Assembly (NCBI GenBank): GCA_959020415.1
Contig: CAUERX010000001.1
Coordinates: 15,442-79,441, forward strand
DNA length: 64,000 bases
Direction of reading: 5' to 3'
DNA from: an uncultured bacterium
Lineage (GTDB): Bacteria; Bacillota_I; Bacilli_A; RF39; UBA660
Position numbers and translations under genes: made by a program. Under the pieces are notes generated by a model that worked only from the letters and a program-made list of their open reading frames with translations, was not told where the DNA came from and made no database searches. Of the stretch, positions 23,510 to 47,177 are shown piece by piece (the stretch's first letter is position 1; the number at the start of each line of letters is the position of its first letter).

Positions 23510-23521
23510 TTTCGTAAAGAT

Positions 23522-31238: not shown

Positions 31239-31254
31239 TGGTGGAGAATAAGGG
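31239..31254. repeat. att repeat copy 1 (distal end of the array)
   Basis: TGGTGGAGAATAAGGG, identical to the reverse complement of the tRNA-Ala 3' end. Confidence 0.85.
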
Positions 31255-31386
31255 TTTATTTATTGACTTTAAATAATTTTAAAAATATAGTTTTCTTTTT
31301 AATTTCAATCTTTTTAGTTTATTTAAGTTTAAAAAGATTGAATGTGAATTTTTAAAAATTAAGGAAAATAAATTATAAAAGTGATA

Positions 31387-31743
31387 TTATGCTAGAGCTG
31401 GTTTATTATGTATAGTACCAATTTTTTTTACAAAACTAGTTTCTTGCTCTTTTTCTTTTTCACCAAATTGTTCGTTTAAAGTTAAAACACTACTTTTATA
31501 TCTATTATATGCGAAATCATAGTCGCCATTTTCAATAGCCTTAACACAAACATCTACAATATGGTTATATATACACTCGTATATTTCCTCGTTATCATCT
31601 AATGCATCAATATTTTCAACTATTATAGGCGCAACTTCATAATATAAAGCAATATCTTCTTTAGAAACAAAATTATCTCTAAACCATCTTAAAACAGTTA
31701 ATTCATAGCAATTGTTATCAAATCCATTTTGAAAATGTTTCAT
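31387..31743 (-). CDS. Hypothetical protein; probably the 3' part of a longer frameshifted gene
   Basis: The frame stays open upstream of the ATG (..SGSCYLTSACMKHF..CYELTVLRWFRDNF). It joins another frame at an A8 run near 31912-31919. No convincing start for the long version. Confidence 0.35.
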   Translation of the reverse strand: MKHFQNGFDNNCYELTVLRWFRDNFVSKEDIALYYEVAPIIVENIDALDDNEEIYECIYNHIVDVCVKAIENGDYDFAYNRYKSSVLTLNEQFGEKEKEQETSFVKKIGTIHNKPALA

Positions 31744-31983
31744 ACAAGCAGATGTTAAATAGCAACTTCCTGAATGGCTATCTTTTTGAGATTTATCGCT
31801 ATTATGAGTTGTCGCACTGTAACTTTTGTTACTACTGTCTACATTAATATGAGCAGCAGAATGATCTGGTGTGCTTGGATCTTTATCATAAAAGGAAATA
31901 TGATCTCTTCTTTTTTTTATCAGTACTTATTTTAATTGTAACGCCTTTATCGTTTACATATTCGCCTCTTTCATTTCTTCCTA

Positions 31984-32304
31984 TTATTTTTCCTCCTTTA
32001 TTAACAGTAATTTTTTATGTAAATTAAATAAATAGTCACTCCATATTTCAATTTGTTCTGCATAAATTCCATCTTCTATAGCATATTTTTCAAGTAAAGG
32101 TAATGATCTAAGATGGACATCATTTAATATATTTGAAGATAGTATATTAAAATCTTTATATTCATCATACTTTATTTTTTGTTTAGCAATTAAATCTAGC
32201 ATTTCTATATATTCTGACTTGTCATCATTATATGGTTGATAATAAATTGCTATAGATAAATTATACAATAATTTTTCAAAAGCTTGTTCTAATTCTTTTG
32301 ACAT
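31984..32304 (-). CDS. Hypothetical helical protein (106 aa)
   Basis: AGGAGAA SD before the ATG. No recognisable motif. Confidence 0.45.
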   Translation of the reverse strand: MSKELEQAFEKLLYNLSIAIYYQPYNDDKSEYIEMLDLIAKQKIKYDEYKDFNILSSNILNDVHLRSLPLLEKYAIEDGIYAEQIEIWSDYLFNLHKKLLLIKEEK

Positions 32305-32559
32305 ATTAATTCTCCTTTCTCACTTATAAATTAAAAGGCGACAAAAATATATAATTTGCCACCAAAAATGAAATAAAAATGTAAGTAAATAAATTGTTTT
32401 AGTAGCAAACTTTCTGCTTCCCAATAATTTATAAACTATATTAACACTCTTTGTTATAAATTTCAATGCTTTTATATAATACAATAAAAAAATAAGGGGA
32501 GAATATAGTGGTATTTAGAATATTTATATTAGTTGTGATTATTTTATGCTTTTTTATTT

Positions 32560-32991
32560 ATAAATAAAACCCTAACAAGAAAGAAGGTTGATGGAAGAAA
32601 TATGATTAATAGTCCGAAAACTGCAAAGTCATATCGCAAGGTTAAATTAGATAAGCGTCTATTATCAAAATTACATGAATATAAAGAAACGTGCTATAAG
32701 TTTGTTGAATTTAATGATAGTTGGTACATATTTGGGTGTTTGAGCCCACTTGCGACAACGACAGTAGCAAGAAAAAAAGATTACTATTGTAATCTAGCTG
32801 GTGTTAAGCAAATAAAAATACACGACTTTAGACATAGCCATGTATCTTTATTACTATCAAAGGGTGTTCCTATTACAGTCATCGCCAAACGACTAGGACA
32901 CTTTGATATTGAAATGACACTTAATACATATTCACATATGTTACCCGGTGACGAGGACAAAGCAATTGATGTCCTTGAAACCTTAATTTAA
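32560..32991 (+). pseudogene. 5'-truncated tyrosine integrase remnant (element A)
   Basis: Homology to the element C and D integrases starts abruptly at INKTLTRKK. Retains HDFRHSHVSLL and LNTYSH but lacks the N-terminal ~240 aa. Confidence 0.8.
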
Positions 32992-33087
32992 AAATAAATT
33001 ACCTTATAATCACACGAGGGATTTTTAAAGGCTAATTAAGTGCATTTATAATTAAAGCCTTGTAAAACAAGGCTTAATTAACTAATT

Positions 33088-33103
33088 TGGTGGAGAATAA
33101 GGG
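33088..33103. repeat. att repeat copy 2 (A/B junction)
   Basis: TGGTGGAGAATAAGGG, preceded by the hairpin AAGCCTTGtaaaaCAAGGCTT and TAATTAAC. Confidence 0.85.
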
Positions 33104-33240
33104 GTATTTATTGACTTTAAATAATTTTAAAAATATAGTTTTCTTTTTAATTTCAATCTTTTTAGTTTATTTAAGTTTAAAAAAGTTTAATGTGAATTTT
33201 TAAAAATTAAGGAAAAAGTGATATAAAAATGATACATCAA

Positions 33241-33981
33241 TTATTTTATATTATATACTCTTTTAGAATTTAAAAATATTTGATGAGATACAGCATCAAT
33301 ATCTTTGTTTTTAATTTTAGCAATTTTTTCAATTATATATTTTAATGACGAGGAATCACATCTACTGTTTTCATCTAAAGGATATGGAGACATTAATGGG
33401 GCATCAGTTTCTACTATAATTTTATCAAGTGGTAAAAAACTTATTATTTCATTATATTTATTATCTCTTGTAATAGGCCCGTCAAAGCCAAAATAAAATC
33501 CTAATTTCAAAAATTTTTTTGCATATTCTAAATTGCCAGAGTAACAATGCATAATACCTTTCTTATTAACTGGATTGTTTATTAATATATTATATAATTG
33601 TTTATGAGCTCTCCGGCAATGAATGACAATGGGTAAATTAAGTTCATTAGCAAGTTTAATATGTTTTATAAAATATTCTTTTTGAAGTTCAATATTTGGA
33701 AATTTATAATCAATGCCAGTTTCCCCTATAGCTACAACCTTATCATTCATAATTTTTTTAGTATTATTTAAATCTTCTTTAGCACCAACATTCATAGGAT
33801 GTAATCCAAGACAGGCAAAAATATTTTTGTATTCGTTTGTATATTGAATCGTTTTCATATTTGATTTATTATTCGTACCTATATTTACAATAATAGTGTT
33901 TTCTAGTTTTTTCAATAGGGATTTTCTATCTTTGTCGAATTCTGCCCAATCATAATGTGTGTGTGTATCAAAATATTTCAT
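33241..33981 (-). CDS. TatD-family metal-dependent hydrolase/DNase
   Basis: YFDTHTH, GETGIDY, VIHCR, ETDAP motifs. ATG at 33981 with a GGTGA SD. Confidence 0.85.
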   Translation of the reverse strand: MKYFDTHTHYDWAEFDKDRKSLLKKLENTIIVNIGTNNKSNMKTIQYTNEYKNIFACLGLHPMNVGAKEDLNNTKKIMNDKVVAIGETGIDYKFPNIELQKEYFIKHIKLANELNLPIVIHCRRAHKQLYNILINNPVNKKGIMHCYSGNLEYAKKFLKLGFYFGFDGPITRDNKYNEIISFLPLDKIIVETDAPLMSPYPLDENSRCDSSSLKYIIEKIAKIKNKDIDAVSHQIFLNSKRVYNIK

Positions 33982-34074
33982 TATAATCACCATTATTAAT
34001 ATATCACATTTTTTTATAGAAATCATTAAAAATACAATAAATATGTTATAATTCTTATACGAGGAAGTGATTTT

Positions 34075-34512
34075 ATGAAAGTATTAACAATTCAAGAGCC
34101 ATATGCAACATTTATAATGCAAGGAATGAAAAAAATAGAAACTCGTAGTTGGAAAACAAAATATAGAGGAGAAATATATATACATGCAGGGAAATCTAAA
34201 AATTTCTTAAAAAAAATAAAAAATAATAAAGTCTTAAAATTGTTAGAAGGTATAGTTTTAAATTATGGAAACATTATTTGTAGGGCAGAATTGGTTGACT
34301 GTATATATATGACAAAAGAATTTATAGACAAAGTTAAGAATGAAAATAATTATGAATATATTCTTGGGGAATATGAGGTTGGTAGATATGCATGGGTTTT
34401 AGAAAATGTACAAGAGTTAGAAAAAAAAGTTTTTGCAAAAGGCAAACTTAATATATGGACATACTCTGAATATTCTGATAACGTGGAGCAATTATCGCTA
34501 TTTGATGAATGA
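34075..34512 (+). CDS. ASCH (PUA-like) domain protein
   Basis: LTIQEPYATFIMQGMKKIETRSW...IYIHAGK, typical of ASCH domains. Confidence 0.75.
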   Translation: MKVLTIQEPYATFIMQGMKKIETRSWKTKYRGEIYIHAGKSKNFLKKIKNNKVLKLLEGIVLNYGNIICRAELVDCIYMTKEFIDKVKNENNYEYILGEYEVGRYAWVLENVQELEKKVFAKGKLNIWTYSEYSDNVEQLSLFDE

Positions 34513-34593
34513 ATAATATAATTAATTGTTAAATTTTTCTTGTAAAAATAATTATTATATGTTAATATAATACCAATTTTGGAGACGATATTA

Positions 34594-35187
34594 ATGGAAC
34601 TAAAACATTTAAAAGATAAAGGAGATATCCAAGAAGGAATTAATGCTTTAACTGCCATTTTTATTGATGAATATCCATATTATAGTGAATGGATTAAAAA
34701 GAAAGAGGAAGAATTTAATATATTTGAAAAAGAGATATTGGCATTAATTGATAAAAATATTATTGTAGGATATGCAATGATACATAATTGTACACCGAAT
34801 TATTTTAAAATAAATGGAATTTATGTATTTCCAGAATTTGAAGGTAATGGATATGCAAGTAATGCAATTATGCAAATGATCGAAGAACAGGCTCTATTTG
34901 GTAAGCAATATGCACTAATTCAAACAAGACTTCACAATAATGCGGTTGTACATATGTTTGATAAAATTGGTTTCGATATTTTGGGCCATAATTTTCATCA
35001 AATAGAGCAAAAGGATAATTGGGTTGCAATGTTCGACATTAATCAAAAATGTGATTATGATGATATGATAGGAATTGCATATAAAGAATATCCTGGTTTT
35101 GAACCTAGGAGTATAGAAGAAATTCAAAATACAAGAGAAAAATATTCTAATTATGATAGAATAAAAAGATTAAAAAAAATACATTAA
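34594..35187 (+). CDS. GNAT-family N-acetyltransferase
   Basis: IYVFPEFEGNGYASNAIMQMIE (acetyl-CoA binding motif A). GGAGA SD 8 nt before the ATG at 34594. Confidence 0.7.
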   Translation: MELKHLKDKGDIQEGINALTAIFIDEYPYYSEWIKKKEEEFNIFEKEILALIDKNIIVGYAMIHNCTPNYFKINGIYVFPEFEGNGYASNAIMQMIEEQALFGKQYALIQTRLHNNAVVHMFDKIGFDILGHNFHQIEQKDNWVAMFDINQKCDYDDMIGIAYKEYPGFEPRSIEEIQNTREKYSNYDRIKRLKKIH

Positions 35188-35263
35188 TATATGTATTTTT
35201 TTATGATATAAATATGATCTGTAAAATAAAAAAACTTATAAAATAAGGACTTAATTGCAAATT

Positions 35264-35278
35264 TGGTGGAGAATAAGG
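35264..35278. repeat. att repeat copy 3 (B/C junction)
   Basis: TGGTGGAGAATAAGG. Confidence 0.8.
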
Positions 35279-35413
35279 AAGAAAATAAAGAATATTAATA
35301 AATTTATTTTTTCTTATAAAATAAGCCGAAAATCTCGTTAGCATTTAGTTAAGAAACTTAAATTATTCTCTTGTTGTGAAATTTATAAGGTCACAATAAG
35401 GAGGAAATTTAGA

Positions 35414-36079
35414 ATGTCAGTATTTAGAATTAATAAAACCGATAATTATACTGTTATGTCTAATTATCATTTAAGAGATAAGAAATTATCTTATAAAGCC
35501 AAAGGATTATTATCATTTATGTTAAGTCTTCCCGATGATTGGGATTATTCAATTAATGGTTTAGTTAGCATTAGTAAAGAAAGTAATAAGGCAATTAGAA
35601 ATGTTTTAAAGGAATTACAAGATAATAATTATTTATCTATTAATAAAATTAAAAATGAGAAGGGTTTATTTAAATATGAGTATCTAATTTATGAAAAACC
35701 AGATACCCCTTTTGTAGATGTGGATAATCTACATGTGGAAAGGGACATACAAATAAATACTAATAAACTAAATACTAATTACAAAGATAAATATGATAAA
35801 CAAGACAGTTTATTTATAAAGGAACTTATTAATCGGAGATTTATAAATAAAGAAGATTTAGAAATACCTAGATATAAGGCTTTATTTGATGAATTATTGC
35901 AGGAGTATAGTTATTATGATTTAATTAAAGTTTGTGGCTATATAGCTGATAAATGGCAAAATAATAGCGGATTAGATGAAAACGGTTTATCTATTTCCAA
36001 TAAATATAGTTATTTTAAGACTGCGTTGATTAATAATTTAGAAAAGATAAACAATGATATTGACCTTGGGTATGATTAA
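35414..36079 (+). CDS. Winged-helix replication-initiator-like protein (DnaD/replisome-organizer N-terminal type)
   Basis: FRINK..NYTVMSN..LRDK.LS.KAKGLLSFMLSLPDDWDYS. Paralog of 40049-40729. AAGGAGG SD. Confidence 0.6.
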   Translation: MSVFRINKTDNYTVMSNYHLRDKKLSYKAKGLLSFMLSLPDDWDYSINGLVSISKESNKAIRNVLKELQDNNYLSINKIKNEKGLFKYEYLIYEKPDTPFVDVDNLHVERDIQINTNKLNTNYKDKYDKQDSLFIKELINRRFINKEDLEIPRYKALFDELLQEYSYYDLIKVCGYIADKWQNNSGLDENGLSISNKYSYFKTALINNLEKINNDIDLGYD

Positions 36080-36088
36080 TTATATTAA

Positions 36089-36127
36089 AAGGATAGCTGA
36101 TTAATTGGCTATCCTTATTTTTTTTTT
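36089..36127 (+). terminator. Intrinsic terminator
   Basis: AAGGATAGC-loop-GCTATCCTT followed by T10. Confidence 0.7.
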
Positions 36128-36358
36128 ATTTAATCATTAAAATTTGTTATTACAAATGCAGGACATATGTGTTTGGTGTCTGACGTTTTTATTTTCGGCT
36201 TTCTTTTTATTTTAGCGGGCTTTTCGACACTGTCGAAATATTTGTCGGACCGCTCTTATCCTGTTACAGAATGTTTTAAGAAAATAAAAATATAGTATTT
36301 ATGGTTTATTTGCAAATCCAAAATTATGTGATATAATGAAATCAATAGGGGTGATATT

Positions 36359-36820
36359 ATGAAAAATAATGAAGTGACTGTATATACAATCGCAGATTTT
36401 TTCTTAAGTAAGTCAAGTTTAACTCCAAAGAAGATACAAAAATTGGTTTATTATGCATATGCATGGTTTATTGCGTTGAACAATGATAGCAGCGAAGATA
36501 TTAATAATGTATTGTTTGCAGAAAGGCCAGAGGCATGGATACACGGTCCAGTTTTCCCTTCATTATATTCTAAGTTTAAATCTTTTAATTGGAATGAAGT
36601 TCCTCAAATAAAAGAAAAAATAACTTTTGAGAGTAAAGATTTAAATGGTTTTTTAGATGATGTTTGGGAAATTTTTGGAAAATATACAGCTGATGAATTA
36701 GAATATATGACACATCAAGACTTGCCATGGAAGAATGCTAGGATAAATTGCGATGCAAACGAGCCTTGTAATAATAAAATATCATTTAAGGATATATTTA
36801 TATATTATAATGGGATATAA
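36359..36820 (+). CDS. Panacea/DUF4065 (SocA-like) antitoxin-type domain protein
   Basis: LTPKKIQKLVYYAYAW...EAWIHGPVFPSLYSKFK matches the DUF4065 core pattern (KLQKLLYY..W...EAW..GPV...Y). Confidence 0.75.
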   Translation: MKNNEVTVYTIADFFLSKSSLTPKKIQKLVYYAYAWFIALNNDSSEDINNVLFAERPEAWIHGPVFPSLYSKFKSFNWNEVPQIKEKITFESKDLNGFLDDVWEIFGKYTADELEYMTHQDLPWKNARINCDANEPCNNKISFKDIFIYYNGI

Positions 36821-37490
36821 ATCAACTAAACAGATTAAAGTCCCGGAATATGAAGAAGAGAAACGACTTTTAAAAGCAGTAGAACAAAAGCCTGTTGATA
36901 ATAGAATTGTTTTCTCTTTTTCTTTTTTTCAAAAACATAGTATAAGGCTTGGCGATTTTAATAATTTTTATCCAAATATCAATAGTTCTTTAAAAGCTGT
37001 TAGTGATTTTTTTGAAACTATTACTTTAATTTCTAAATATGAGAAAAGTCATTTTTTTTCTCCTGAAACAAAAAAGCAATTTCATTATAATGAATTTACT
37101 GATAATGATATAATAGATAAAATTGAAAACATACTTATTAGAGGTTATAATATGCCGCGACAAAAGGTAGATCAATTTGAGCGACTTTTCTTTGAATTTT
37201 CTTTTTATGATGGTAAGAGAGTAATTGGTACTAAAATATATGGAAATTTATTTGAAATACTATTTATTGATTGTAATCACATGATTTGTAAGGATAGTAG
37301 TCGTAATTTAAAAATGAAAGAAGTATATAAAGTTCCTAGCGCTTTTAAAAAGGAAAATTTAAGTGAAGATGTTGAAGAATATGGAAAAATGGAGTTGATA
37401 GAAATGCTAGTGGGAATGGGTCGTTCTGGATTTTACGGAACAATTGAAGAATTTATTAAAGATTTTGATGATTTATTAGAAAAGGTATAG
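36810..37490 (+). CDS. Unknown protein overlapping the Panacea gene by 11 nt; candidate cognate toxin
   Basis: Its ATG lies inside the last codons of the upstream gene (ATGGGATATAA). No recognisable domain. No good SD, so the exact start is uncertain. Confidence 0.5.
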   Translation: MGYKSTKQIKVPEYEEEKRLLKAVEQKPVDNRIVFSFSFFQKHSIRLGDFNNFYPNINSSLKAVSDFFETITLISKYEKSHFFSPETKKQFHYNEFTDNDIIDKIENILIRGYNMPRQKVDQFERLFFEFSFYDGKRVIGTKIYGNLFEILFIDCNHMICKDSSRNLKMKEVYKVPSAFKKENLSEDVEEYGKMELIEMLVGMGRSGFYGTIEEFIKDFDDLLEKV

Positions 37491-37500
37491 TTTGTCTTTA

Positions 37501-37857
37501 TTAATAGTATTTTTCTTTGATATTATTAAACGGGAAATTTGAACTTAAAACTAAAGGTTTACAAGAAACAATATTAATATTATATTTATTTTTTAATACT
37601 ATTTTTGAATTTTCAATTATATTGTTCCATTCATTGTTAGTATATTTTATCTCGCCTAGACTACTATTGGCTAGGCTATAGTAATCAGTATTATCACCGC
37701 GATAATATTTAAACCACAACATTATAAAATGGGCTATATCTTCGGATAGCCTTTTTTGTTTATATTTTTTCTCATGCTCAAAGAAAATATCTAACTTCTT
37801 CTCTCTGGCACCTTCAATGTCTTTATCGTTTTCAGGACATATTTTATTTGTGTACAT
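37501..37857 (-). CDS. Conserved element-backbone protein of unknown function (118 aa)
   Basis: Paralog of 43712-44068 (SEDIAH..MLW.KYYR.DNTDY...ANSS...YTN.EWN.IIENSKI.LK.KYNI). GAGGTGA SD. Confidence 0.55.
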   Translation of the reverse strand: MYTNKICPENDKDIEGAREKKLDIFFEHEKKYKQKRLSEDIAHFIMLWFKYYRGDNTDYYSLANSSLGEIKYTNNEWNNIIENSKIVLKNKYNINIVSCKPLVLSSNFPFNNIKEKYY

Positions 37858-38009
37858 AATGTCACCTCGCACGCATACGCAGAGTATGCTATTAATTGCG
37901 ATTATATAGTGATTGTTTCATCTTGTCAAGGACTTTTTCCATACAATGAGTATGGAAAAAGATAAAACTATGCCATTCGTATTGTGTGCTTTATTAGAGG
38001 TGTTAAAAT

Positions 38010-38222
38010 ATGAAAATAGTGGCTAATGATTATGAAGAAAAAGAAGTAATGAAAATATTAAGAGAATGGTCAGAGAAAAAGCAAGAGGATTTCGGTAAGG
38101 AAATTGGTGTAAGTGGTATGACTATTCAAGGTTATGAACGAGGTATTAGGCGATATACTTTTGAAACTTTAATGAAAATTGCTAAAAAATATGGTTATAA
38201 AGTAACCATCGAAAAGAAATAA
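38010..38222 (+). CDS. Small HTH (XRE-like) regulator, element C
   Basis: QEDFGKEIGVSGMTIQGYERG helix-turn-helix. Divergent from the 118-aa backbone gene. Confidence 0.65.
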   Translation: MKIVANDYEEKEVMKILREWSEKKQEDFGKEIGVSGMTIQGYERGIRRYTFETLMKIAKKYGYKVTIEKK

Positions 38223-38230
38223 TATAAAAA

Positions 38231-38284
38231 AGATTGTAGAAAGATTATAAAAGGATTATAGAAAGACTATAAATTAGATTGACG
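38231..38284. repeat. Four to five tandem 11-bp iteron-like repeats
   Basis: AGATTGTAGAA AGATTATAAAA GGATTATAGAA AGACTATAAAT TAGATTGACG, just upstream of the extended -10 TGTGTATAAT. Confidence 0.6.
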
Positions 38285-38445
38285 ATTTAATTTTTAAGGG
38301 TTAAAATGTGTATAATAGCTAATCATTTTAGTAAAAGGTGATGGCTATTTTTTTGTTCTCTAATTAGGGAATTTCGGACATTTTAGAAAGGAGGATATTA
38401 AAATGTCAAATAACATGATAAAATGTAACATGAAAGGAGGTAAAA

Positions 38446-38739
38446 ATGTCCTATAGGGAAATATTTAAAGTTATTTCAAAAGCATGGTCAAGTGTCGAAG
38501 ACATCATGGCTATTGCAGGTTGTGGTAGAACGGGAGCTACAACGATTAGAGAAACAGTAATTAAAAATATAAGGAAAGAAAATAAAGAAATTCCTTATTG
38601 TAGAAAAAAAGTTGTACCAACAAAAAGAGTTATTGAATTACTTGATTTAGATGTAGATTATATTAAGGATATGGCATTAAAAGAACAAGAATTAGAAAAT
38701 GCCAAGAGCAACGTTGATTATGCCTGTATATCAAGATAA
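38446..38739 (+). CDS. Small DNA-binding protein upstream of the integrase (excisionase/RDF candidate), element C
   Basis: Paralog of 45657-45947. Overlaps the integrase start. AGGAGG SD. Confidence 0.5.
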   Translation: MSYREIFKVISKAWSSVEDIMAIAGCGRTGATTIRETVIKNIRKENKEIPYCRKKVVPTKRVIELLDLDVDYIKDMALKEQELENAKSNVDYACISR

Positions 38740-39896: not shown

Positions 39897-39913
39897 TGGT
39901 GGAGAATAAGGGA
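39897..39913. repeat. att repeat copy 4 (C/D junction)
   Basis: TGGTGGAGAATAAGGGA, preceded by CCCTTGaaaaaCAAGGG and TAATTAAC. Confidence 0.85.
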
Positions 39914-40048
39914 CAAAGTATTATGTTTCGATATAATTCGTTTCCTTGATTTTAAAGGCATTTTGTTAATTATATAAATGTTTAAATACTGAAGAAAGAT
40001 GTTTATTTCTGAATTTTTAAGAACTCTTTAAGGAGGAGAAAATTAGAA

Positions 40049-40729
40049 ATGTCAGTATTTAGAATTGAAAAAAACAAAAATTATACAGTGATGTCAAATC
40101 ATCACTTAAAAGATAAAAATTTAAGTCTTAAAGCAAAGGGTTTATTATCATTTATGTTAAGTTTACCAGATGACTGGGACTATTCAATGAATGGGTTAGT
40201 AGCAGTAAATAAAGAAAATATTAGTGCTATAAGAACAGCTTTGCACGAATTAGAAGAAAATAATTATTTAAAAAGAATAAGACAACAAAAGGAAAATGGT
40301 AAATTTGTATATGAATATATTATTTATGAAGAGCCACCGTATATAGATTTTCTGCATACGGTAAATCCGTATACGGAAAATCATACACAAATAAATACTA
40401 ATATACAAAATACGGATAACAAAGATAAATATGATAAACAAGAATTTCCAATAATAAAAGAATTAATAAATAGAAATTTTATAGATAAGAATGATTTAGA
40501 TATTCCAAAATATTATGATTTATTAAACGAATTATTAGAAGAATATGATTATTATGATGTAGTTAAAGTTTGTGGGTATATTGCTGATAAATGGAAAGAT
40601 AATAATGGTTTTGATGAGAATGGGTTACCTATTGAAAATAAGTATGGTTATTTTAAAGCCTCATTAATTAATAATTTGGAGAAAATTAATAACTATGTTG
40701 AATTAGATTATGAGGACTTGTCTATATGA
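40049..40729 (+). CDS. Winged-helix replication-initiator-like protein, element D
   Basis: Paralog of 35414-36079. AAGGAGGAG SD. Confidence 0.6.
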   Translation: MSVFRIEKNKNYTVMSNHHLKDKNLSLKAKGLLSFMLSLPDDWDYSMNGLVAVNKENISAIRTALHELEENNYLKRIRQQKENGKFVYEYIIYEEPPYIDFLHTVNPYTENHTQINTNIQNTDNKDKYDKQEFPIIKELINRNFIDKNDLDIPKYYDLLNELLEEYDYYDVVKVCGYIADKWKDNNGFDENGLPIENKYGYFKASLINNLEKINNYVELDYEDLSI

Positions 40730-41958
40730 GTTATGCTATATTTAGAGTACAGGCCATTAATACTGTGAGAGATTTATCACAAATAGGTATTCATAATCAG
40801 AGAAAAAAACAAGCATATAAAAGTAACCCAGATATTGATATTAGTAAATCAAAAGACAATATAACTTTGGTGGCTTGTGAGGATAAGTATTTGCAGGCTT
40901 TTGATAGAATGACTAAAGAATATAAAATGCAACACGAAGAAAGAATGAAAACAATGCGAGAAGATCGAAAGAAAAGTTATCATAAAATGTTAGATAGTTC
41001 AAATAGTGTGGTTGCTGATGAATTTCTTTTTACAGCAACCTCTCGCTTTTTTAAGGGAATGAGTAAATCTGAAATTATGAAGTGGGCTGATGGTTGTATG
41101 GACTTTGTTTATAATGAGTTAGGTTATAAAAAGGAACAAGTCTTACATTCAGTAATTCATATGGATGAAAAAACACCACACATTCATTGTGTGGTTGTTC
41201 CTTTAATTAAAAAATATGATAAAAGATGTAAGAAAGAAAAATATACTATATCTAAAAAGGCTTATATCAAAAATAACGAGCATTTAAGCGAGCTTCAAGA
41301 TAGGTACTGTAAATTACTCAATGATAGAGGTTTCGCCCTAGAAAGGGGCATAAAAGGCAGTAAAAATGTTAATATGAATGTTAAGCTATTCAGGCAAGTT
41401 ACTAAAAAATTAAATAATGAAATTAGTAGAGATAATATTGAGCTAGCTAAAGAGTTAAATGATTTAGATAATAAGATGAAATCATCGAAAGAATTAGTTA
41501 TTAATAAAGAGTATGTCAAAGTTAAAAAAGATACTTTTGATAGTATGAATATAGTTATTGATAAGTCTAAAGAAATTATAAATAAAGCACCTGTTTTAGA
41601 TAATTTAATGGATGTAGCGAATGAATGTGTTAATGGTTACAAAGAATTAGAAAAAGAAAATAAAAAATTAACTAAAAAAGTTAATAATTTGCAATATAAA
41701 AATAATGAACTTAAAGAAGAAAATAGAAACCTTAAAAACTATATTTATAATTTATTACAAGGTTTTAAAAAATGGTTTAATAAAATACTTCATTTAGGAG
41801 CAGAACAAGATAAAGAACAAGTTGTTGAAGAAATTAATGATTATTATGATAGTGGTTTTTATGATAAATATGATTTAGAAGATATTACTCATAATACAAC
41901 AAAAGAAAAGGAGATAGAAAAAAACATTTATGATGACTATGATATACCTAGTTTATAA
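40726..41958 (+). CDS. MobV-family (Mob/Pre) relaxase
   Basis: N-terminal MSYAIFR...HNQR and HMDEKTPHIHCVVVP (HxDE...PHxH) motifs, coiled-coil C-terminus. Confidence 0.85.
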   Translation: MSYAIFRVQAINTVRDLSQIGIHNQRKKQAYKSNPDIDISKSKDNITLVACEDKYLQAFDRMTKEYKMQHEERMKTMREDRKKSYHKMLDSSNSVVADEFLFTATSRFFKGMSKSEIMKWADGCMDFVYNELGYKKEQVLHSVIHMDEKTPHIHCVVVPLIKKYDKRCKKEKYTISKKAYIKNNEHLSELQDRYCKLLNDRGFALERGIKGSKNVNMNVKLFRQVTKKLNNEISRDNIELAKELNDLDNKMKSSKELVINKEYVKVKKDTFDSMNIVIDKSKEIINKAPVLDNLMDVANECVNGYKELEKENKKLTKKVNNLQYKNNELKEENRNLKNYIYNLLQGFKKWFNKILHLGAEQDKEQVVEEINDYYDSGFYDKYDLEDITHNTTKEKEIEKNIYDDYDIPSL

Positions 41959-42162
41959 TTGAAAATAAAGGAAAAATATGGTAAAATATATTTAGATTTA
42001 TGCAGTATTAAAATTTATGATTTTAATACTGCTGTTTTTAGAAATGATATAATGAAAAACTATTTAAACAATAAAAAAACAAATGAATTTCCAATTACCA
42101 GTTTTAATTATTTTTTTAGTAATTGCAGTCTTAGTATTTATATTGTTTTACGGAGGTAAAGA

Positions 42163-42795
42163 ATGGCTAACGGTGTTTGTAAAATAAAAAAAATAAGTCC
42201 TAAAATATGTATGTTATTATTTTTGCTATTTTTATTATTTATATGTTGTATGTTAATTACAATAGATTATAACAATAGTTTATCAAGGATGGGGTTAAGA
42301 GTAGATAATTTTAATTGGGAATTAATTAGTATTTTGGTAAATGCTTTAGTGTTATTGTTGGTTTTTATTTTAACGTATTTGTTAATTGATATTTATAATG
42401 TTGAAAAAAATAAAAATAAGAGGAATATAGTAAAACAATTATTAAAAAATGATTATGAAGCGTGTTTACGTTATTTGGATATCCTTTTAGATAAAGAACA
42501 GTTGGTTTATATTTGTAATAAAGTTGATAAAGATAAATTGTTGTGGGAAAACAAGGCATTATTAGAATATGTTGAAAAAACTTTTAACAATGAAAAAATG
42601 ATAGTTGACTATGCTTCACAGGGTGTTGTTGATAGTGAATTGTTTGAAAATTATAATCGTGTTAAAAACACATATAAAGATTTTTTTGTAGGTTTGGTTT
42701 GTTTTAGCGATATTGATGAAAGAATTAGCGGTGAATTTGATAATTGGAATAGCCAGTTAAAGAAGGATATAAAAAAAATATTGGATGAATTATAA
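42163..42795 (+). CDS. Two-TM membrane protein with a cytoplasmic helical domain, unknown function
   Basis: GGAGGT SD. TM helices at about residues 17-35 and 52-75. Confidence 0.5.
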   Translation: MANGVCKIKKISPKICMLLFLLFLLFICCMLITIDYNNSLSRMGLRVDNFNWELISILVNALVLLLVFILTYLLIDIYNVEKNKNKRNIVKQLLKNDYEACLRYLDILLDKEQLVYICNKVDKDKLLWENKALLEYVEKTFNNEKMIVDYASQGVVDSELFENYNRVKNTYKDFFVGLVCFSDIDERISGEFDNWNSQLKKDIKKILDEL

Positions 42796-42835
42796 ATAAA
42801 TATATTACAAAATTATAATGTTAGGGAGTGAGATA

Positions 42836-43615
42836 ATGGATTTATTAGATAAGGATAAATTTTATAAAGTTTTAACAGAACCTACTATGGAAAATTTTAG
42901 ATTTTTGTTACAAAATCATACAGGAGAAGAAGATTATTTAGATTTTAAAGCGGACTGGGAAAGTAATGAGAAAATTGCGAAACATTTGTTGGCTTTAGCT
43001 AATTCTGGAGGTGGGTGTATAGTTTTTGGTGTTAAGCAGGAACTTGATGGAACATTTACCATAAAGGGGCTTTCAAGTTTAAATGATCCGTCTAAATTAA
43101 AAGAGGGAATAAAAGGTAAAATTCCTAATACTTTAAAATATCATATCAAAGATTTTGAGTATAAGTCTGCTGAATATGCTGCTATGAAAAACAAAAAATT
43201 TCAATTATTAATTGTAGAGGATGATCCAAAAAATTTGCCATTTGTATGTTGCAGTAATGGCAAAGATATAAAAGATGGTGCTATATATGTTAGAGATCAT
43301 ACAGAAAGTGTTTTGGCTAACAGTTATCAAATAGATGAAATTATTAATAGGAAATTGAATGCTAAAAAAATACCTAAAGATAGAAATATGGATTTAGATG
43401 AGCACCTTAAGCAATTAAAAATTTTATATAATGAATTAACTTATGTTGAAAGAAATGGTGGACTTATATTTAATTTTGGAGCTATAATGAAAAATATTAT
43501 TGGAAATGGTATGGTTGTTAAAAAAGAAATGTATCCAAAAGAAGATTATGAAGATTTTATTGTAAGAGTTTTAAATTCCAAGAAAAAAAGAATAGAAGAA
43601 GAATTGGATATTTAA
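42836..43615 (+). CDS. AlbA_2 (Schlafen-like) domain protein
   Basis: EEDYLDFKADW....IAKHLLALANSGGGCIVFGV..ELDG...IKGL matches the AlbA_2 core (E.K....AFAN..GG.L..GV.D.G...G). GGGAGTGAG SD before the ATG at 42836. Confidence 0.6.
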   Translation: MDLLDKDKFYKVLTEPTMENFRFLLQNHTGEEDYLDFKADWESNEKIAKHLLALANSGGGCIVFGVKQELDGTFTIKGLSSLNDPSKLKEGIKGKIPNTLKYHIKDFEYKSAEYAAMKNKKFQLLIVEDDPKNLPFVCCSNGKDIKDGAIYVRDHTESVLANSYQIDEIINRKLNAKKIPKDRNMDLDEHLKQLKILYNELTYVERNGGLIFNFGAIMKNIIGNGMVVKKEMYPKEDYEDFIVRVLNSKKKRIEEELDI

Positions 43616-43711
43616 TTATAGTAACACACTACGCTATTGGCAGAGCCAATAGCGATTTTCCTAGCGTAAACAATGTAAGTAATTGGTTTAGCTCTAATGA
43701 GCTAAACCTTT

Positions 43712-44068
43712 TTAATATAAGTTTTCATTGATTTGATTAAATGGAACTGGAGAACTTAATATTAGTGGTTTGTCAGAAATAATAGATATGTTATATTTTT
43801 CCTTTAATATAATTTTAGAGTTTTCTATAATTTTATTCCATTCCTGATTAGTGTAACAATTATCGGCTGTACTGCTGTTAGCCATTCCTAGATAATCTGT
43901 GTTATCTTCTCTGTAATATTTTAGCCATAACATTGCATAATGAGCTATATCTTCGGAAATTCTAACTGCTTTATATGCGTTATATCTGTCATACATTAAA
44001 TCTAGTTTTTTTAATTTTTCTCCAGCAATGTCTTTGCCATCATCTTCTGTTAATTCATTGTAATACAT
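43712..44068 (-). CDS. Conserved element-backbone protein of unknown function (118 aa), element D copy
   Basis: Paralog of 37501-37857. GAGGAGGGA SD. Confidence 0.55.
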   Translation of the reverse strand: MYYNELTEDDGKDIAGEKLKKLDLMYDRYNAYKAVRISEDIAHYAMLWLKYYREDNTDYLGMANSSTADNCYTNQEWNKIIENSKIILKEKYNISIISDKPLILSSPVPFNQINENLY

Positions 44069-44191
44069 TATTTCCCTCCTCTCATCTTTCACTTATAGTG
44101 GAAGTATTGTAAAAATTATCTCATATTCATTATACAATTGTCAAGACTATGAGTGGTATCACTTTTGGTGATATATGGGAGGTTAATGAGT

Positions 44192-44410
44192 ATGAGGGCA
44201 GAAATAACAAAATTAGAGCCAAAAGATATTTTATTATTGATAAGAGAATGGGATGAGGAAACCCAAGAAGAGTTTGCAAAATCAGTTCATAGGAGTTATT
44301 CATCAATTACTAAAATGGAAACAGGGGATAGAAATATTTATTTGCATACTTTTCTTGAATGGTGTAAGTTAAAAGGGATTAAAGTAACTATGGAGAAAAT
44401 AAAAAGATAA
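44192..44410 (+). CDS. Small HTH regulator, element D (paralog of 38010-38222)
   Basis: LLIREWDEETQEEFAK aligns with ILREWSEKKQEDFGK. GGGAGG SD. Confidence 0.6.
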   Translation: MRAEITKLEPKDILLLIREWDEETQEEFAKSVHRSYSSITKMETGDRNIYLHTFLEWCKLKGIKVTMEKIKR

Positions 44411-44423
44411 CGGGTTCAGTAAT

Positions 44424-45041
44424 TTATTCGTTATCTTTTTTATTTAATTCTAAATTAGAATATGTTATATAGGTTGGTTTTGATTTATTATCGTGTAAGG
44501 TGCTTCTTTCTATTAACGTATCGAATTTAGGATATTTACTTTTGTCGAATTTTTCTAAATTAGGTTTCATTAAACGAGATACTTCTTTTAATTGTTCTAG
44601 TATTTCTTCCATTGTAATTTGATTATTATAAAATTCGGGGTGTTCTATTCTATCAATTAAATCAACATATATATTTTTGCATTCTAAAGCATTCCTTCTT
44701 CTTTTATCAATATCATCTAAAACATCAGAATAAAACTTTTGATAACTTTCTATTGCCTTGCGATAATCTTCGGTAGATCGTTTTTCCTCCCTGTTTCTTC
44801 CCCAGTTTATATCTATATCACTATAACCAGCTAATTCCATAAGTTTTACTAAACTTAAGTCTAATACTTCGGCTATTCCTTTTAAATATAAAACATTTGG
44901 TTTTTGCCTTTTACCAGCTTCAATTCTTGATACTTCAGCGCTATCCATATTTGCAAGTTTAGCTAATTGTCTTTGTGATATACCTTTACTCTCACGAGCT
45001 GTTGAAATTAATTGACCTAATTCAGTTTGATTTTTAGCCAT
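44424..45041 (-). CDS. XRE/cI-type HTH repressor with a C-terminal domain
   Basis: GISQRQLAKLANMDSAEVSRIEAGKR HTH. AAGAGG SD before the ATG at 45041. Confidence 0.8.
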   Translation of the reverse strand: MAKNQTELGQLISTARESKGISQRQLAKLANMDSAEVSRIEAGKRQKPNVLYLKGIAEVLDLSLVKLMELAGYSDIDINWGRNREEKRSTEDYRKAIESYQKFYSDVLDDIDKRRRNALECKNIYVDLIDRIEHPEFYNNQITMEEILEQLKEVSRLMKPNLEKFDKSKYPKFDTLIERSTLHDNKSKPTYITYSNLELNKKDNE

Positions 45042-45120
45042 AATAAACACCTCTTTTTCACTTGCTGTTGATAGTTTATCACAAAATGATGTAAAAATCA
45101 ATATTTTTTTCAAAAAAGTG

Positions 45121-45176
45121 TTGACAATTACATCAATAGAGTATATACTATTTTGCAAATGATGTAATTTACATCA
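45121..45176 (+). promoter_or_regulatory. Divergent-switch promoter with operator-like repeats
   Basis: TTGACA (45121), 17 nt, TATACT (45144). Half-site TTACATCA at 45128. Perfect palindrome TGATGTAA-T-TTACATCA at 45160-45176. Confidence 0.5.
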
Positions 45177-45214
45177 CTAGAAAGGAGGGAAAAATACTGA
45201 ATAAAGTACAACAC

Positions 45215-45457
45215 TTGATACCTGACAAAGTCTGGAAAGACAAAAGGGTAAAGTCAGAAGGTAAACTGATATATAGTTATCTATATACCAAGTCCAATGG
45301 TAGATTACTCACAAACTTAAATGTCGGGGAGTTACAACAAGTAGTTCAAATAAGTAATCAAGGGCTTAAAAGAAATCTTGAAAAACTGGAACAAACCAAA
45401 TATCTATTCTACAAAGAATATGATACAGGGATGTATACCATACATTTACTAAAATAG
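45215..45457 (+). CDS. Small winged-helix-like protein (cro/antirepressor position)
   Basis: Divergent from the repressor. TTG start with a GGAGGG SD. Weak support. Confidence 0.4.
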   Translation: MIPDKVWKDKRVKSEGKLIYSYLYTKSNGRLLTNLNVGELQQVVQISNQGLKRNLEKLEQTKYLFYKEYDTGMYTIHLLK

Positions 45458-45656
45458 TTAAAACATTTAGTAATATTAGGTACAGTAAGATGAAAGGCTT
45501 ATGTTAGTACCTTTTCTATAAAACATATAGAATAAAATTTCTAAAACATCAAAGGGAATAACAATTATTCCCTTATAGGGGTACTCTGCCTTTTTGATAA
45601 AGTATACAATTTTGTAATCACTCGTGATAAAATGAATATCGGAAAGGAGGATAGAT

Positions 45657-45947
45657 ATGTCTTATAGTGAATTGTTTAAAATATTATTAAAACCGTGGGC
45701 TAGTGTAAATGAAATAATGAGTATTGCTAACTGTGGCAAAGATAGTGCTACTCAAATAAGAGATAATATTATAGCTCAAATAAAAAAAGAAAATAAGGAA
45801 ATTCCTTATAGTAAAAAAATTGTAGTACCAACAGAAAAAGTTATTGAATATCTAAATCTTGATGTTGATGATATTAAGAATATGGCTTTCAGCGAACAAG
45901 AATTTATGAATTGTAGGACAAATGTAAATGCCAGTTTATCAAAATAA
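45657..45947 (+). CDS. Small DNA-binding protein upstream of the integrase (excisionase/RDF candidate), element D
   Basis: Paralog of 38446-38739. AAGGAGG SD. Confidence 0.5.
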   Translation: MSYSELFKILLKPWASVNEIMSIANCGKDSATQIRDNIIAQIKKENKEIPYSKKIVVPTEKVIEYLNLDVDDIKNMAFSEQEFMNCRTNVNASLSK

Positions 45948-47006
45948 AAAAACAAAACAATGGAAGTTTAGAACTTATGCCGAAGATTTTTACGGGCAAA
46001 GAAAACAATTTCAAAAAAGTGGTTTTAGGACAAAAAAAGAAGCTATACAAGCTGAAATGGAGTTTAAAAATAAATATAGTAATGGTTGTGTAATATGACT
46101 TTTGGCGAATTATGGGAAATATATGAAAAACATATTGAATTAAAATTGAAATATAACTCATATAGAACGATAAAAACTAGAGTTGAAAAACATATATTAC
46201 CATATTTTAAAGATTATAAACTTGAAATGATTAATGCTGCTATATATACAAGATGGCAAAAGTTAATGGAAGATAAAGGTTATAGTTATAAGTATAAAAG
46301 TTCAATGCACGGTACAATAAGAACTATGTTAAATTATGCTATTAAATTCTATGGTTTGGAAACAAACATTGCAAGTAAGGTTGGAAACTTTTCTAAAAGA
46401 AATGAAATTCCGAAACAACCAGATGTTTGGTCTTATGAAGAATTTAAAAAATTTATTGATGTAGTTGATAATGATATGTATAAATTATTCTTTGAAACAC
46501 TTTATTACACAGGAATAAGAAAAGGCGAATGTTTAGCGCTTACCTGGAATGATTTACAAGGAAAATATTTATATATTAATAAAACTATGACTAGGCAAAA
46601 AATAGATGGTGTAAATCAGGTTAATAGTCCAAAAACAACCACATCACATAGAAAAGTAAAAATCACAGAAAATTTGTTATTAAAATTAAATGCTTATAAA
46701 GAAAGATGTCATAAGTTTGTAGGGTTTGAAAATAGTTGGTACATATTTGGTTGTTTGAAACCACTTTCTACGACAACAGTAGCGAGAAAGAAAGATTTAT
46801 ATTGTGAAAAAGCTGGAGTTAAGAAAATAAAAATACACGACTTTAGGCATAGTCATGTATCTTTGTTATTATCAAAGAATGTTCCTATAACAGTTATTGC
46901 GGACCGATTAGGACATTCCGATAAGGAAATCACCCTTAATACTTATTCACATATGTTACCAGGCGACGAAAATAAAGCAGTTGACGCACTGGAAAATTTA
47001 GAATAA
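45928..47006 (+). pseudogene. Tyrosine integrase split by a frameshift near 46090 (element D)
   Basis: The N-terminal 56 codons (MPVYQNKKTKQWKFRTY...SNGCVI*) end at 46098. The rest (..MTFGELWEIY...HDFRHSHVSLL...LNTYSH) is in another frame from 46086. Colinear with the element C integrase. Confidence 0.8.
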
Positions 47007-47100
47007 AAAAACCAAGTTCTTAAAAATAAGAATATTTTAAGTATTTAAACTAGTGATTATATAATTAAACCCTTGATAAACAAGGGACAATTAACAAATA

Positions 47101-47177
47101 TGGTGGAGAATAAGGGATTCGAACCCTTGACCCCCTGCGTGCAAAGCAGGTACTCTAGCCAACTGAGCTAATTCCCC
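47101..47177 (-). tRNA. tRNA-Ala(TGC), integration target of the array
   Basis: Anticodon loop uuTGCac, G3:U70 identity pair, encoded CCA. Its 3' 16-17 nt form att repeat copy 5. Confidence 0.95.

What the first reader, a model, noticed from the sequence alone, without database searches (positions are those of the whole stretch)
31239..47177. Four integrative elements accreted in tandem at tRNA-Ala(TGC), marked by five copies of the tRNA 3' end
TGGTGGAGAATAAGG(G) is the reverse complement of the 3' end of the minus-strand tRNA-Ala at 47101-47177. It recurs at 31239, 33088, 35264 and 39897.

The repeats divide 16 kb into four segments:
- A, 1.8 kb: gene fragments and a truncated integrase.
- B, 2.2 kb: TatD-ASCH-GNAT, no integrase.
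- C, 4.6 kb: rep-like gene, Panacea pair, regulatory module, RDF-like gene, integrase.
- D, 7.2 kb: rep-like gene, MobV relaxase, TM+AlbA_2 pair, regulatory module, cI/cro-like switch, RDF-like gene, integrase.

The sequence to the left of copies 2, 4 and 5 shares a hairpin (CCTTG-5 nt-CAAGG) plus TAATTAAC, consistent with a common attP arm.

A hairpin with a minus-strand T-run at 31199-31225 looks like the tRNA's original terminator, now stranded 16 kb away.

Element D has the gene set of an integrative mobilizable element (relaxase, no conjugation genes).
Basis: seen in the sequence. Interest (0 to 1): 0.7.

Follow-up and report, generated by a model that had tools for sequence, protein, structure and literature searches.

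The report
Decayed mobile-element array at tRNA-Ala
Four small mobile DNA elements have piled up one after another at the end of a tRNA-Ala gene in an uncultured human-gut bacterium; this is a clear example of a well-known process (tandem accretion), and here every integrase gene is broken, so the pile is probably stuck.

Summary
TGGTGGAGAATAAGG, the 3' end of the minus-strand tRNA-Ala(TGC), occurs exactly five times and cuts 16 kb into segments of 1849, 2176, 4633 and 7204 nt.

- one contig has an empty site, with tRNA-Ala running straight into the terminator at 31204-31225;
- three contigs carry a single C-like element;
- one has a D-like element directly at the left flank;
- B-like 2.17-kb cassettes bounded by the same core occur beside tRNA-Ala in another species.

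Every breakpoint falls on a repeat copy.

Corrections and additions:
- All three integrase genes are defective: A is 5'-truncated, C has a nonsense codon before the catalytic Tyr, and D is frameshifted. The array is probably frozen.
- The shared "arm hairpin" is best read as a replacement terminator for the tRNA, brought in by each element. It shows covariation.
- The family also targets tRNA-Pro 7.7 kb away; that site is unoccupied in the window.
- B is an integrase-less cassette (CIME-like).
- A's integrase remnant and C together form a circular permutation of the single element found in sister strains.

This is a new member of a known kind, of moderate interest.

The parts
31204..31225 (-). 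Native intrinsic terminator of tRNA-Ala, now 15.9 kb from the gene
   Evidence: Terminator scan finds CGAGCTTTCTAAAAAAAGCTCG followed by TTTTTC. In the empty-site contig L022 it follows the tRNA's CCA after 14 nt.
31239..31254 (+). Core copy 1, the distal end of the array
   Evidence: Exact match. Synteny of L001, L004, L005, L023, L024 and L038 with the window ends at 31254.
31255..33087 (.). Segment A: a decayed remnant. It holds a 130-nt arm shared with B (31257-31386), the 5'-degraded CFI-box-CTERM-like gene (31387-31899, minus strand), a 106-aa ORF (31984-32304, minus strand), a 19-codon hydrophobic mini-ORF (32508-32567), an integrase 3' third (about 32558-32991) and an arm with a hairpin (33057-33073).
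   Evidence: The remnant plus arm is 98% identical to the 3' end of the intact L001 element.
33088..33103 (+). Core copy 2
   Evidence: Exact match. It is the boundary of B-like cassettes in other assemblies.
33104..35263 (.). Segment B: integrase-less cassette (CIME-like) carrying TatD 33241-34026 (minus strand), ASCH 34075-34512 and GNAT 34579-35187, with a decayed arm hairpin at 35235-35250.
   Evidence: Pfam. The same 2.17-kb unit lies between two cores in L025-L028 and L033, next to tRNA-Ala or next to a rep-element.
35264..35278 (+). Core copy 3 (16th base is A)
   Evidence: The single elements of L001, L004 and L005 begin here.
35279..39896 (+). Segment C. Genes in order: rep-like 35414-36079; cargo = Panacea 36359-36820 plus a 245-aa partner 36753-37490; 123-aa gene 37501-37872 (minus strand); HTH_3 38010-38222; RDF-like 38446-38739; integrase pseudogene 38699-39799 with an in-frame TGA at 39704-39706; terminator hairpin 39867-39883.
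   Evidence: It is 96-98% identical to the L001 element except for the cargo and the last ~560 nt.
39897..39912 (+). Core copy 4
   Evidence: The L038 D-like element starts here directly after the native left flank.
39913..47100 (+). Segment D, an integrative mobilizable element. Genes in order: rep-like 40049-40729; MobV relaxase 40726-41958; inverted repeat/terminator 42002-42032; cargo = TM protein 42163-42795 plus AlbA_2 42818-43615; 126-aa gene 43712-44092 (minus strand); HTH 44153-44410; cI-like HTH_3 44424-45158 (minus strand); 80-aa ORF 45215-45457; RDF-like 45657-45947; integrase split by a 1-nt frameshift near 46081-46099 (ORFs 45928-46098 and 46086-47006); terminator hairpin 47070-47086.
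47101..47177 (-). tRNA-Ala(TGC). Its last 16 nt (47101-47116) are core copy 5. A promoter-like site lies at 47227-47199.
   Evidence: The 46 nt at the 3' end are identical in L022.
23493..23515 (+). Unoccupied second attachment site of the same element family: the 3' end of tRNA-Pro(TGG) plus 6 nt
   Evidence: A 23-nt direct repeat flanks a sister element in L022. D-like elements sit here in L030 and L031.

Best explanation
**What it is.** This is a tandem-accretion array. Small integrative elements of one family have inserted by tyrosine-integrase site-specific recombination into the last 15-17 nt of tRNA-Ala(TGC), which cover the T-stem 3' strand, the acceptor 3' strand and CCA.

**How one insertion works.**
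- The element brings a replacement tRNA 3' end.
- About 12 nt further on, it brings its own hairpin plus T-run, which terminates the tRNA in place of the native terminator.
- The displaced old 3' end stays behind as a dead repeat copy on the far side of the element.

**How the array forms.** Repeated insertion gives native terminator | c1 | A | c2 | B | c3 | C | c4 | D | c5-tRNA.

**The four parts.**
- C and D are full-format elements: rep-like gene, a variable cargo slot, a divergent regulator pair, a small RDF-like gene and an integrase next to the tRNA. [quoted passage not shown]
- B is an integrase-less cassette with both att ends (CIME-like).
- A is a decayed remnant.

**Current state.** All three integrase genes in the window are inactivated, so the array is most likely locked in place and decaying.

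**Shown:** the repeats, the gene content, the strain-to-strain boundaries, the empty site and the integrase lesions.
**Inferred:** the recombination mechanism, terminator function, order of arrival, and immobility.
For: **Repeats and genes**
- Five exact core copies, all in one orientation.
- Gene content from Pfam, PHROGs and NCBIfam.

**Same-species contigs** (flanks 95-97% identical to the window)
- L022: empty tRNA-Ala site, with the tRNA followed directly by the native terminator.
- L001, L004, L005: one C-like element lying exactly between window 31254/35264 and 39913/47101, with intact 359-366-aa integrases.
- L023, L024: a different element (RVT_1 cargo) after the distal core.
- L038: a D-like element (94.3% nt identity) directly after the left flank.

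**B as a discrete unit**
- In L025-L028 and L033 the B-like unit lies between two cores 2173-2177 nt apart. It sits next to tRNA-Ala or next to a rep-element.

**Mobility of the family**
- Sister elements sit at tRNA-Pro with a 23-nt direct repeat.

**Integrase lesions**
- TGA is a normal stop codon in this window.
- No other integrase of this family is present in the window.

**Terminator reading of the hairpin**
- The scan calls the hairpins on the tRNA strand.
- Every core copy, native or element-borne, is followed at a fixed distance by a hairpin plus T-run.
- Of the 7 stem pairs, 96.4% of cells are paired and 4 pairs show compensatory changes; 0 of 500 shuffles reach this.
- The internal copy at c3, which no longer terminates anything, has lost 3 nt of its stem.

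**Published mechanism**
- Integration, decay to a CIME, then a new integration at the attR site is described in PMC5704250.
- Tandem arrays at ssrA are described in PMC3146451.
Against: - No read-level or experimental evidence exists for this contig. The nonsense codon and the frameshift could be sequencing or assembly errors, in which case C and D would still be mobile.
- The empty-site contig L022 starts inside the tRNA. Only 46 nt of the tRNA are attached to the flank.
- The window covers only 64 kb of a 94.9-kb contig, so a working integrase elsewhere in the genome could still act in trans.
- The simple order 'oldest distal, newest proximal' does not explain the mosaic between A's remnant, C and the L001 element.
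- Terminator function is inferred from sequence only. In the window's own copies 2, 4 and 5 the T-run is interrupted (TTTAATTATA).
- 'Rep' and 'RDF' functions are unproven. AlphaFold models were too poor to test them (pLDDT 57 and 46).
Confidence: 0.85

Rival explanations
1. Assembly chimera. Elements from several co-occurring strains, each with one occupant at tRNA-Ala, were concatenated by the assembler through the shared core and arm sequences. No single genome would then carry four elements.
For: - The source is evidently an uncultured organism assembled from a metagenome; relatives are MAGs or metagenome contigs.
- Sister strains carry only one element each.
- A's right end is 98% identical to the element of another strain type.
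Against: - Exact identity between junctions is only 15-17 nt, shorter than usual assembly k-mers.
- The longer shared stretches are 74-93% identical, too divergent to collapse.
- Two-element tandems recur in independent assemblies: B|rep-element in L028 and L033, and tRNA|B|X in L026.
- Internal decay (c3 hairpin, c3 16th base, truncated A) fits real age rather than stitching.
Confidence: 0.05
2. The C-type elements are phage satellites (PICI- or PICMI-like), not conjugation-mobilized elements. They have an integrase, a divergent regulator pair, a small Xis-like gene, a replication initiator and a defence-type cargo. They would be induced and packaged by a helper phage. The array is still accretion, but the transfer route differs.
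For: - The rep-like N-terminus matches phage replication-initiator families (phrog_4707 at 1e-22, phrog_428).
- The integrases are 37% identical to Firmicutes phage integrases.
- C-type elements lack a relaxase.
- Cargo looks defence- or TA-like: Panacea, RVT_1, HATPase_c, AlbA_2.
Against: - No capsid, terminase-small-subunit or packaging-redirection gene is present in 4.4-7.2 kb.
- No close relative was found in IMG/VR.
- D and its relatives carry a bona fide MobV relaxase fused to the same rep module, which points to conjugative mobilization.
Confidence: 0.12
3. The array is still active. The TGA in integrase C and the frameshift in integrase D are sequencing errors or are tolerated (an arm-less 306-aa integrase made from 46086, or an integrase supplied in trans). 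The elements would then still excise singly or as composites.
For: - Each gene has a single lesion; otherwise C is 92% and D 70% identical to the intact L001 enzyme over the aligned parts.
- D's second ORF keeps the core-binding and catalytic domains, including R, HxxR, H and Y.
- The rest of the genome was not seen.
Against: - C loses the conserved His and the catalytic Tyr.
- D loses the Arm-DNA-binding domain, which is present in all intact relatives.
- The frameshift is not in a homopolymer.
- TGA is a used stop codon here.
- No other integrase of the family is in the window.
Confidence: 0.15

Closest known systems
Tandem accretion of ICE/IME/CIME elements at tRNA or protein-gene 3' ends in Firmicutes (ICESt1/CIME of Streptococcus thermophilus; IME_Sag2603_tRNAlys; reviewed in PMC5704250)
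   Same: - Site-specific tyrosine-integrase insertion into the 3' end of a tRNA gene.
- Direct repeats of the target end between the elements.
- Decayed residents that keep their att sites (CIMEs), with newer elements added next to the target gene.
- Small MobV-type IMEs without a T4SS.
- The three-step model in the review fits point by point.
   Different: - The host is an uncultured, low-GC gut 'Tenericutes'/Bacilli lineage.
- The elements are very small (2.2-7.2 kb).
- Four units lie in one array, and every integrase is inactivated.
- The integrase-less cassette B has a conserved size and content across species, rather than being a one-off deletion product.
- Excision and transfer are untested here.
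Dehalococcoides ssrA-specific genomic islands (PMC3146451)
   Same: Multiple tandem islands bounded by a short (20-bp) direct repeat of the 3' end of a small RNA gene. Their number varies per strain. Some islands lack the integration module and are interpreted as cis-mobilizable. The elements are classed as IMEs.
   Different: - Those islands use a serine (CcrB-like) recombinase and tmRNA as target. Here it is a lambda-type tyrosine integrase with an arm-binding domain, and the target is tRNA-Ala or tRNA-Pro.
- The cargo differs: rdhA genes there, TA- or defence-like genes here.
Small mobilizable MobV plasmids of Firmicutes (pMV158-type, 4-8 kb)
   Same: D's relaxase is a MobV equivalog. Its N-terminal relaxase domain is 44-48% identical to MobV of 4-8 kb plasmids. 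The rep and mob genes are adjacent and overlap.
   Different: D is chromosomally integrated, with an integrase and att sites. Its rep-like protein shares only an N-terminal HTH (HTH_36/DUF6017-like) with plasmid and phage proteins. No oriT was identified.
Phage satellites (PICI / PICMI) and other small defence-carrying islands
   Same: Integrase, divergent regulators, Xis-like gene, replication initiator and a variable accessory slot with defence- or TA-like genes. Size is comparable to the smallest satellites.
   Different: No packaging or capsid-remodelling genes. No helper phage is known. A relaxase is present in the D-type. No close hits in viral contigs.

Membership tests
Tandem accretion array of site-specific integrative elements | Direct repeats of the target gene's 3' end delimit each unit, all in the same orientation as the intact target | tested here: met
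   Five exact 15-nt copies on one strand, the last inside tRNA-Ala.
Tandem accretion array of site-specific integrative elements | Units are independently present or absent among related genomes, with boundaries at the repeats, and an empty site exists | tested here: met
   States seen: empty (L022), C-like only (L001, L004, L005), D-like at the flank (L038), B-like alone or with a rep-element (L025-L028, L033)..
Tandem accretion array of site-specific integrative elements | Excision and integration catalysed by the element's integrase (circular attP form, repaired attB) | not testable with these tools
   Needs PCR or reads. No circular contig was recovered, and the window's integrases are all defective.
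Integrative and mobilizable element (IME): segment D | Own integration module (integrase plus att sites) | tested here: inconclusive
   The att copies and a three-domain tyrosine integrase are present, but the gene is split by a frameshift. The D-like relatives fetched (L030, L038) end before the integrase.
Integrative and mobilizable element (IME): segment D | Relaxase and/or oriT, but no conjugative pore (T4SS/T4CP) genes | tested here: met
   MobV equivalog at 114.9 bits against a cutoff of 100; Mob_Pre at 2.4e-28. No other D gene matches a conjugation family. The oriT was not located.
Integrative and mobilizable element (IME): segment D | Demonstrated mobilization by a helper conjugative element | not testable with these tools
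   Experimental.
Cis-mobilizable element (CIME): segment B | Flanked by attL and attR but lacks recombination and transfer genes | tested here: met
   Cores lie at 33088 and 35264. The only genes are TatD, ASCH and GNAT. The layout is the same in five other contigs.
Cis-mobilizable element (CIME): segment B | Derived from an ICE or IME by deletion, and mobilizable with or by a neighbour | not tested
   No integrase remnant is seen in B. Segment A, which has the same 130-nt arm plus an integrase remnant, could be an intermediate. Mobility is untested.
Lambda-type tyrosine integrase (active enzyme) | Complete R-H-R-H/W-Y catalytic set plus an N-terminal arm-binding domain in one reading frame | tested here: not met
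   A has the C-terminal 129 aa only. C stops before the His and Tyr. D has its arm domain in another frame. It is met in L001, L004 and L022.
Phage satellite (PICI-like) | Genes for hijacking helper-phage packaging (terS, capsid-size redirection, or cos/pac) | tested here: not met
   No such Pfam, PHROGs or NCBIfam hits in C or D.

The most novel reading that the evidence does not exclude
The tRNA-Ala site works as an integron-like platform in this gut lineage.
- Integrase-less cassettes such as B (2.17 kb, conserved in size and content across species, with both att arms) are non-autonomous hitchhikers. They would be inserted and excised in trans by the integrases of the rep-type elements.
- Every unit carries its own tRNA terminator, so any order of units keeps the tRNA functional.
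- Homologous crossovers between the integrase genes of neighbouring units (the circular-permutation relation between A's remnant, C and the L001 element) would regenerate intact, mobile elements out of 'dead' arrays.
Probability: 0.2. Interest if true: 0.6.

Novelty: new member of a known kind. Interest (0 to 1): 0.4.

Why it matters
- It documents an undescribed, widespread family of very small integrative elements in uncultured gut Bacilli/'Tenericutes'. The rep-like protein has about 6000 relatives.
- The family has at least two tRNA specificities and a swappable cargo slot. The slot carries TA- and defence-like genes: Panacea, a reverse transcriptase, HATPase_c and AlbA_2.
- It gives a complete natural series for one locus: empty, single, tandem and decayed. 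Such a series is useful for calibrating island-finding software and for studying how arrays freeze.
- The idea that each element carries its own tRNA terminator is a simple, testable explanation for conserved 'arm' hairpins next to tRNA-targeting att sites.
- None of this changes current concepts. Accretion at tRNA genes is textbook.

Tried and rejected
**Led nowhere**
- Exact-protein look-ups of both flank genes found nothing.
- IMG/VR scans gave only distant N-terminal matches for the rep-like protein and none for the integrase.
- PADLOC gave no defence-system call for the Panacea pair or the TM+AlbA_2 pair. TatD matched QatD only at family level.
- AlphaFold models of the RDF-like protein (pLDDT 57) and of the conserved 118-123-aa protein (pLDDT 46) were too poor for a fold search. 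'RDF' therefore stays a positional guess.
- A's interior (31387-32550) matches none of the fetched loci.
- No oriT was identified for D.
- A literature search for mobile elements in RF39-type bacteria found nothing.

**Considered and rejected**
- Recoding of TGA (code 4 or 25) as an explanation for the stop in integrase C. TGA ends 7 of 57 long ORFs in the window.
- Segmental duplication as the origin of the repeats. The segments differ in content, and identity ends at the core.

**Not resolved**
- The exact order of arrival, and the origin of the A/C/L001 mosaic.

Full report
**1. The observation**

ARAGORN places tRNA-Ala(tgc) at 47101-47177 on the minus strand. The 15-mer TGGTGGAGAATAAGG is the reverse complement of its last 15 nt: part of the T-stem, the acceptor 3' strand, the discriminator base and CCA. 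It occurs five times without mismatch, at 31239, 33088, 35264, 39897 and 47101, always on the + strand. Shuffled sequence gives 0.24 matches even with two mismatches allowed.

- Identity extends to 16 nt in four copies (copy 3 has A) and to 17 nt between copies 4 and 5.
- The spacings are 1849, 2176, 4633 and 7204 nt.
- The arms to the left of copies 2, 4 and 5 share CCTTG-N5-CAAGG and TAATTAAC. Copy 3 has a decayed version.
- The hairpin plus T-run at 31204-31225 on the minus strand is found by the terminator scan.
The MobV relaxase is above the curated equivalog cutoff.

**2. The organism and the natural experiment**

The left-flank peptidase gene finds 'uncultured Tenericutes bacterium UMGS841' (a human-gut MAG) at 98% aa identity, plus further metagenome contigs of the same species. 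These relatives, and contigs reached through protein look-ups, give a series of occupancy states.

| State | Contigs | Detail |
|---|---|---|
| Empty site | L022 | The tRNA-Ala 3' part (identical over 46 nt) is followed after CCA by TAATGAT.ATATTCGAGCTTTCTAAA..., the sequence left of copy 1 with its terminator |
| One C-like element | L001, L004, L005 | Synteny with the window stops at 31254, resumes at 35264, leaves again for a different cargo, resumes to 39913, then jumps to the tRNA and the right flank |
| Another element with a reverse-transcriptase cargo | L023, L024 | Lies after the distal core |
| D-like element at the left flank | L038 | 94.3% identical to 39893-42036, then different cargo |

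Every breakpoint is a repeat copy.

The boundary at copy 2 is supported differently. The TatD-ASCH-GNAT unit occurs in another species as a 2173-2177-nt block between two copies of the same core. It lies directly beside tRNA-Ala in L025-L027, or between a distal core and a rep-type element in L028 and L033.

**3. What the units are**

*C and D share a backbone.*
- It consists of a rep-like gene, a terminator, a variable cargo slot, a conserved 118-126-aa gene on the other strand, a small HTH regulator, a 96-97-aa gene overlapping the integrase start, and a three-domain tyrosine integrase next to the tRNA.
- The cargo slot differs in every relative examined:

| Element | Cargo |
|---|---|
| Window C | Panacea pair |
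| L001 | 436-aa membrane protein |
| L004 | Two small membrane proteins |
| L022 | HATPase_c protein |
| L023 | RVT_1 |
| Window D | TM + AlbA_2 |

- D adds a MobV relaxase overlapping the rep gene. It therefore has the gene set of an integrative mobilizable element.
- 'Rep' rests on an N-terminal HTH shared with phage replication initiators and plasmid DUF6017 proteins.
- 'RDF' rests on gene position only. Structure prediction failed.

*B* has no recombinase at all but keeps both arms. That is the definition of a CIME.

*A* is debris. It holds:
- a 130-nt arm 93% identical to B's;
- a CFI-box-CTERM-like gene whose frame lacks its first ~20 codons and a start codon;
- an ORF of unknown function;
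- a 19-codon hydrophobic mini-ORF;
- the last third of an integrase gene, with its arm.

**4. All integrases in the window are broken**
- A keeps 129 C-terminal residues.
- C has TGA in place of the Gly of RLGHSD, upstream of the catalytic Tyr.
- In D the arm-binding domain (45928-46098) and the rest (46086-47006) are in different frames, because of a 1-nt loss that is not in a homopolymer.
- TGA is an ordinary stop codon in this window.
- The single elements of L001, L004 and L022 have intact integrases of 358-366 aa.
- No other integrase of the family lies in the window.

The array is thus most likely immobile unless an enzyme is supplied from elsewhere, or the lesions are errors.

**5. The hairpin**

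On the tRNA strand, every core copy is followed about 12 nt after CCA by a 6-9-bp hairpin and a T-run. This holds for native flanks and for element arms, at tRNA-Ala and at tRNA-Pro.
- Stem sequences differ: GCCTTG/CAAGGC, CCCTTAT/ATAAGGG, ACCATTA/TAATGGT.
- Pairing is nonetheless kept. 96.4% of cells are paired, four of seven pairs show compensatory change, no shuffle reaches this, and slid controls fall to 25-62%.

I read this as a replacement terminator that each element carries together with the replacement 3' end. The copy at c3 no longer follows a tRNA and has lost three stem bases.

This is inference from sequence. The alignment is small, the sequences are related, and in the window's copies 2, 4 and 5 the T-run is interrupted.

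**6. A second target**

In L022, the strain whose tRNA-Ala site is empty, a sister element (rep 85%, integrase 56% aa identity) lies at the 3' end of tRNA-Pro(tgg). It is flanked by a 23-nt direct repeat and has the same arm hairpin. D-like rep+MobV elements occupy the same site in L030 and L031. In the window this site (23493-23515) is unoccupied.

**7. An unexplained mosaic**

The L001 element is 96-98% identical to C from copy 3 through rep, and again from the regulators through two-thirds of the integrase. Identity then drops to 76-86% for the last ~560 nt. Exactly that stretch is 98% identical to A's remnant. The switch point in C (about 39370) coincides within about 20 nt with the left edge of A's remnant (about 32558).

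The window segment [A-right | c2 | B | c3 | C-left] is therefore a circular permutation of the L001 element, opened inside the integrase gene, with B at the core. A crossover between integrase genes (a circle into a resident element, or the reverse) would explain it. I could not decide between these. It does mean that 'A then B then C then D' is too simple.

**8. Comparison with what is known**

[quoted passage not shown] The present locus fits this kind on every sequence-level criterion (see the membership table). Excision and transfer cannot be tested here. The phage-satellite reading of the relaxase-less members is not excluded, but it lacks any packaging gene. Assembly chimerism is unlikely: the exact junction repeats are only 15-17 nt, and tandems recur in independent assemblies.

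**9. Verdict**

It is a new member of a known kind. It is a clear, well-documented example in an uncultured gut lineage, of moderate interest.

Noticed in passing
window 23433-23515: The tRNA-Pro(tgg) 3' end is an unoccupied second attachment site of the same element family. It is occupied in L022 (rep-HATPase_c-int element, 23-nt direct repeat) and in L030 and L031 (rep+MobV).
   Followed up: yes
window 32558-33103 and 39365-39913; L001 14770-15374: A's integrase remnant and C's chimeric integrase make the region A-right|c2|B|c3|C-left a circular permutation of the single element seen in sister strains. The breakpoints coincide within about 20 nt.
   Followed up: partly
window 42002-42032 (segment 41953-42040): A 14-bp inverted repeat plus T-run lies after rep/mob. 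The ~85-nt segment is 81-83% conserved after the rep gene of the L004 and L022 elements, which lack MobV. It could be a terminator, or a candidate origin or oriT.
   Followed up: no
window 32508-32567: An RBS plus a GTG mini-ORF of 19 mostly hydrophobic codons (VVFRIFILVVIILCFFIYK) abuts the integrase remnant in A. It may be a type-I-toxin-like peptide or may be chance.
   Followed up: no
window 31387-31899 (minus strand): ORF118 is the C-terminal CFI-box-CTERM-like domain of a ~187-aa protein family (86% identical to P0241). The frame is open upstream, but the first ~20 codons and the start codon are missing.
   Followed up: yes
L029 6850-12589; L039 7344-10248: The TatD-ASCH-GNAT trio, and MobV relatives at 52-69% identity, also occur next to large serine recombinases in other gut Bacilli. 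The modules are therefore shuffled between elements that use different integration enzymes.
   Followed up: partly
window 22075-23509: An array of 12 tRNA genes on the + strand, ending in the tRNA-Pro that serves as the alternative att site.
   Followed up: no
window 12650-12946: A weak (34% aa) tblastn match to the integrase catalytic region, far outside the array. It may be another recombinase gene or remnant.
   Followed up: no
L032 1217-8308: A larger relative at tRNA-Ala carries a long cargo: NUDIX, radical SAM, an epimerase, an Apyc1-like metallo-beta-lactamase and a Zeta toxin. The cargo slot can therefore grow well beyond that of C and D.
   Followed up: no
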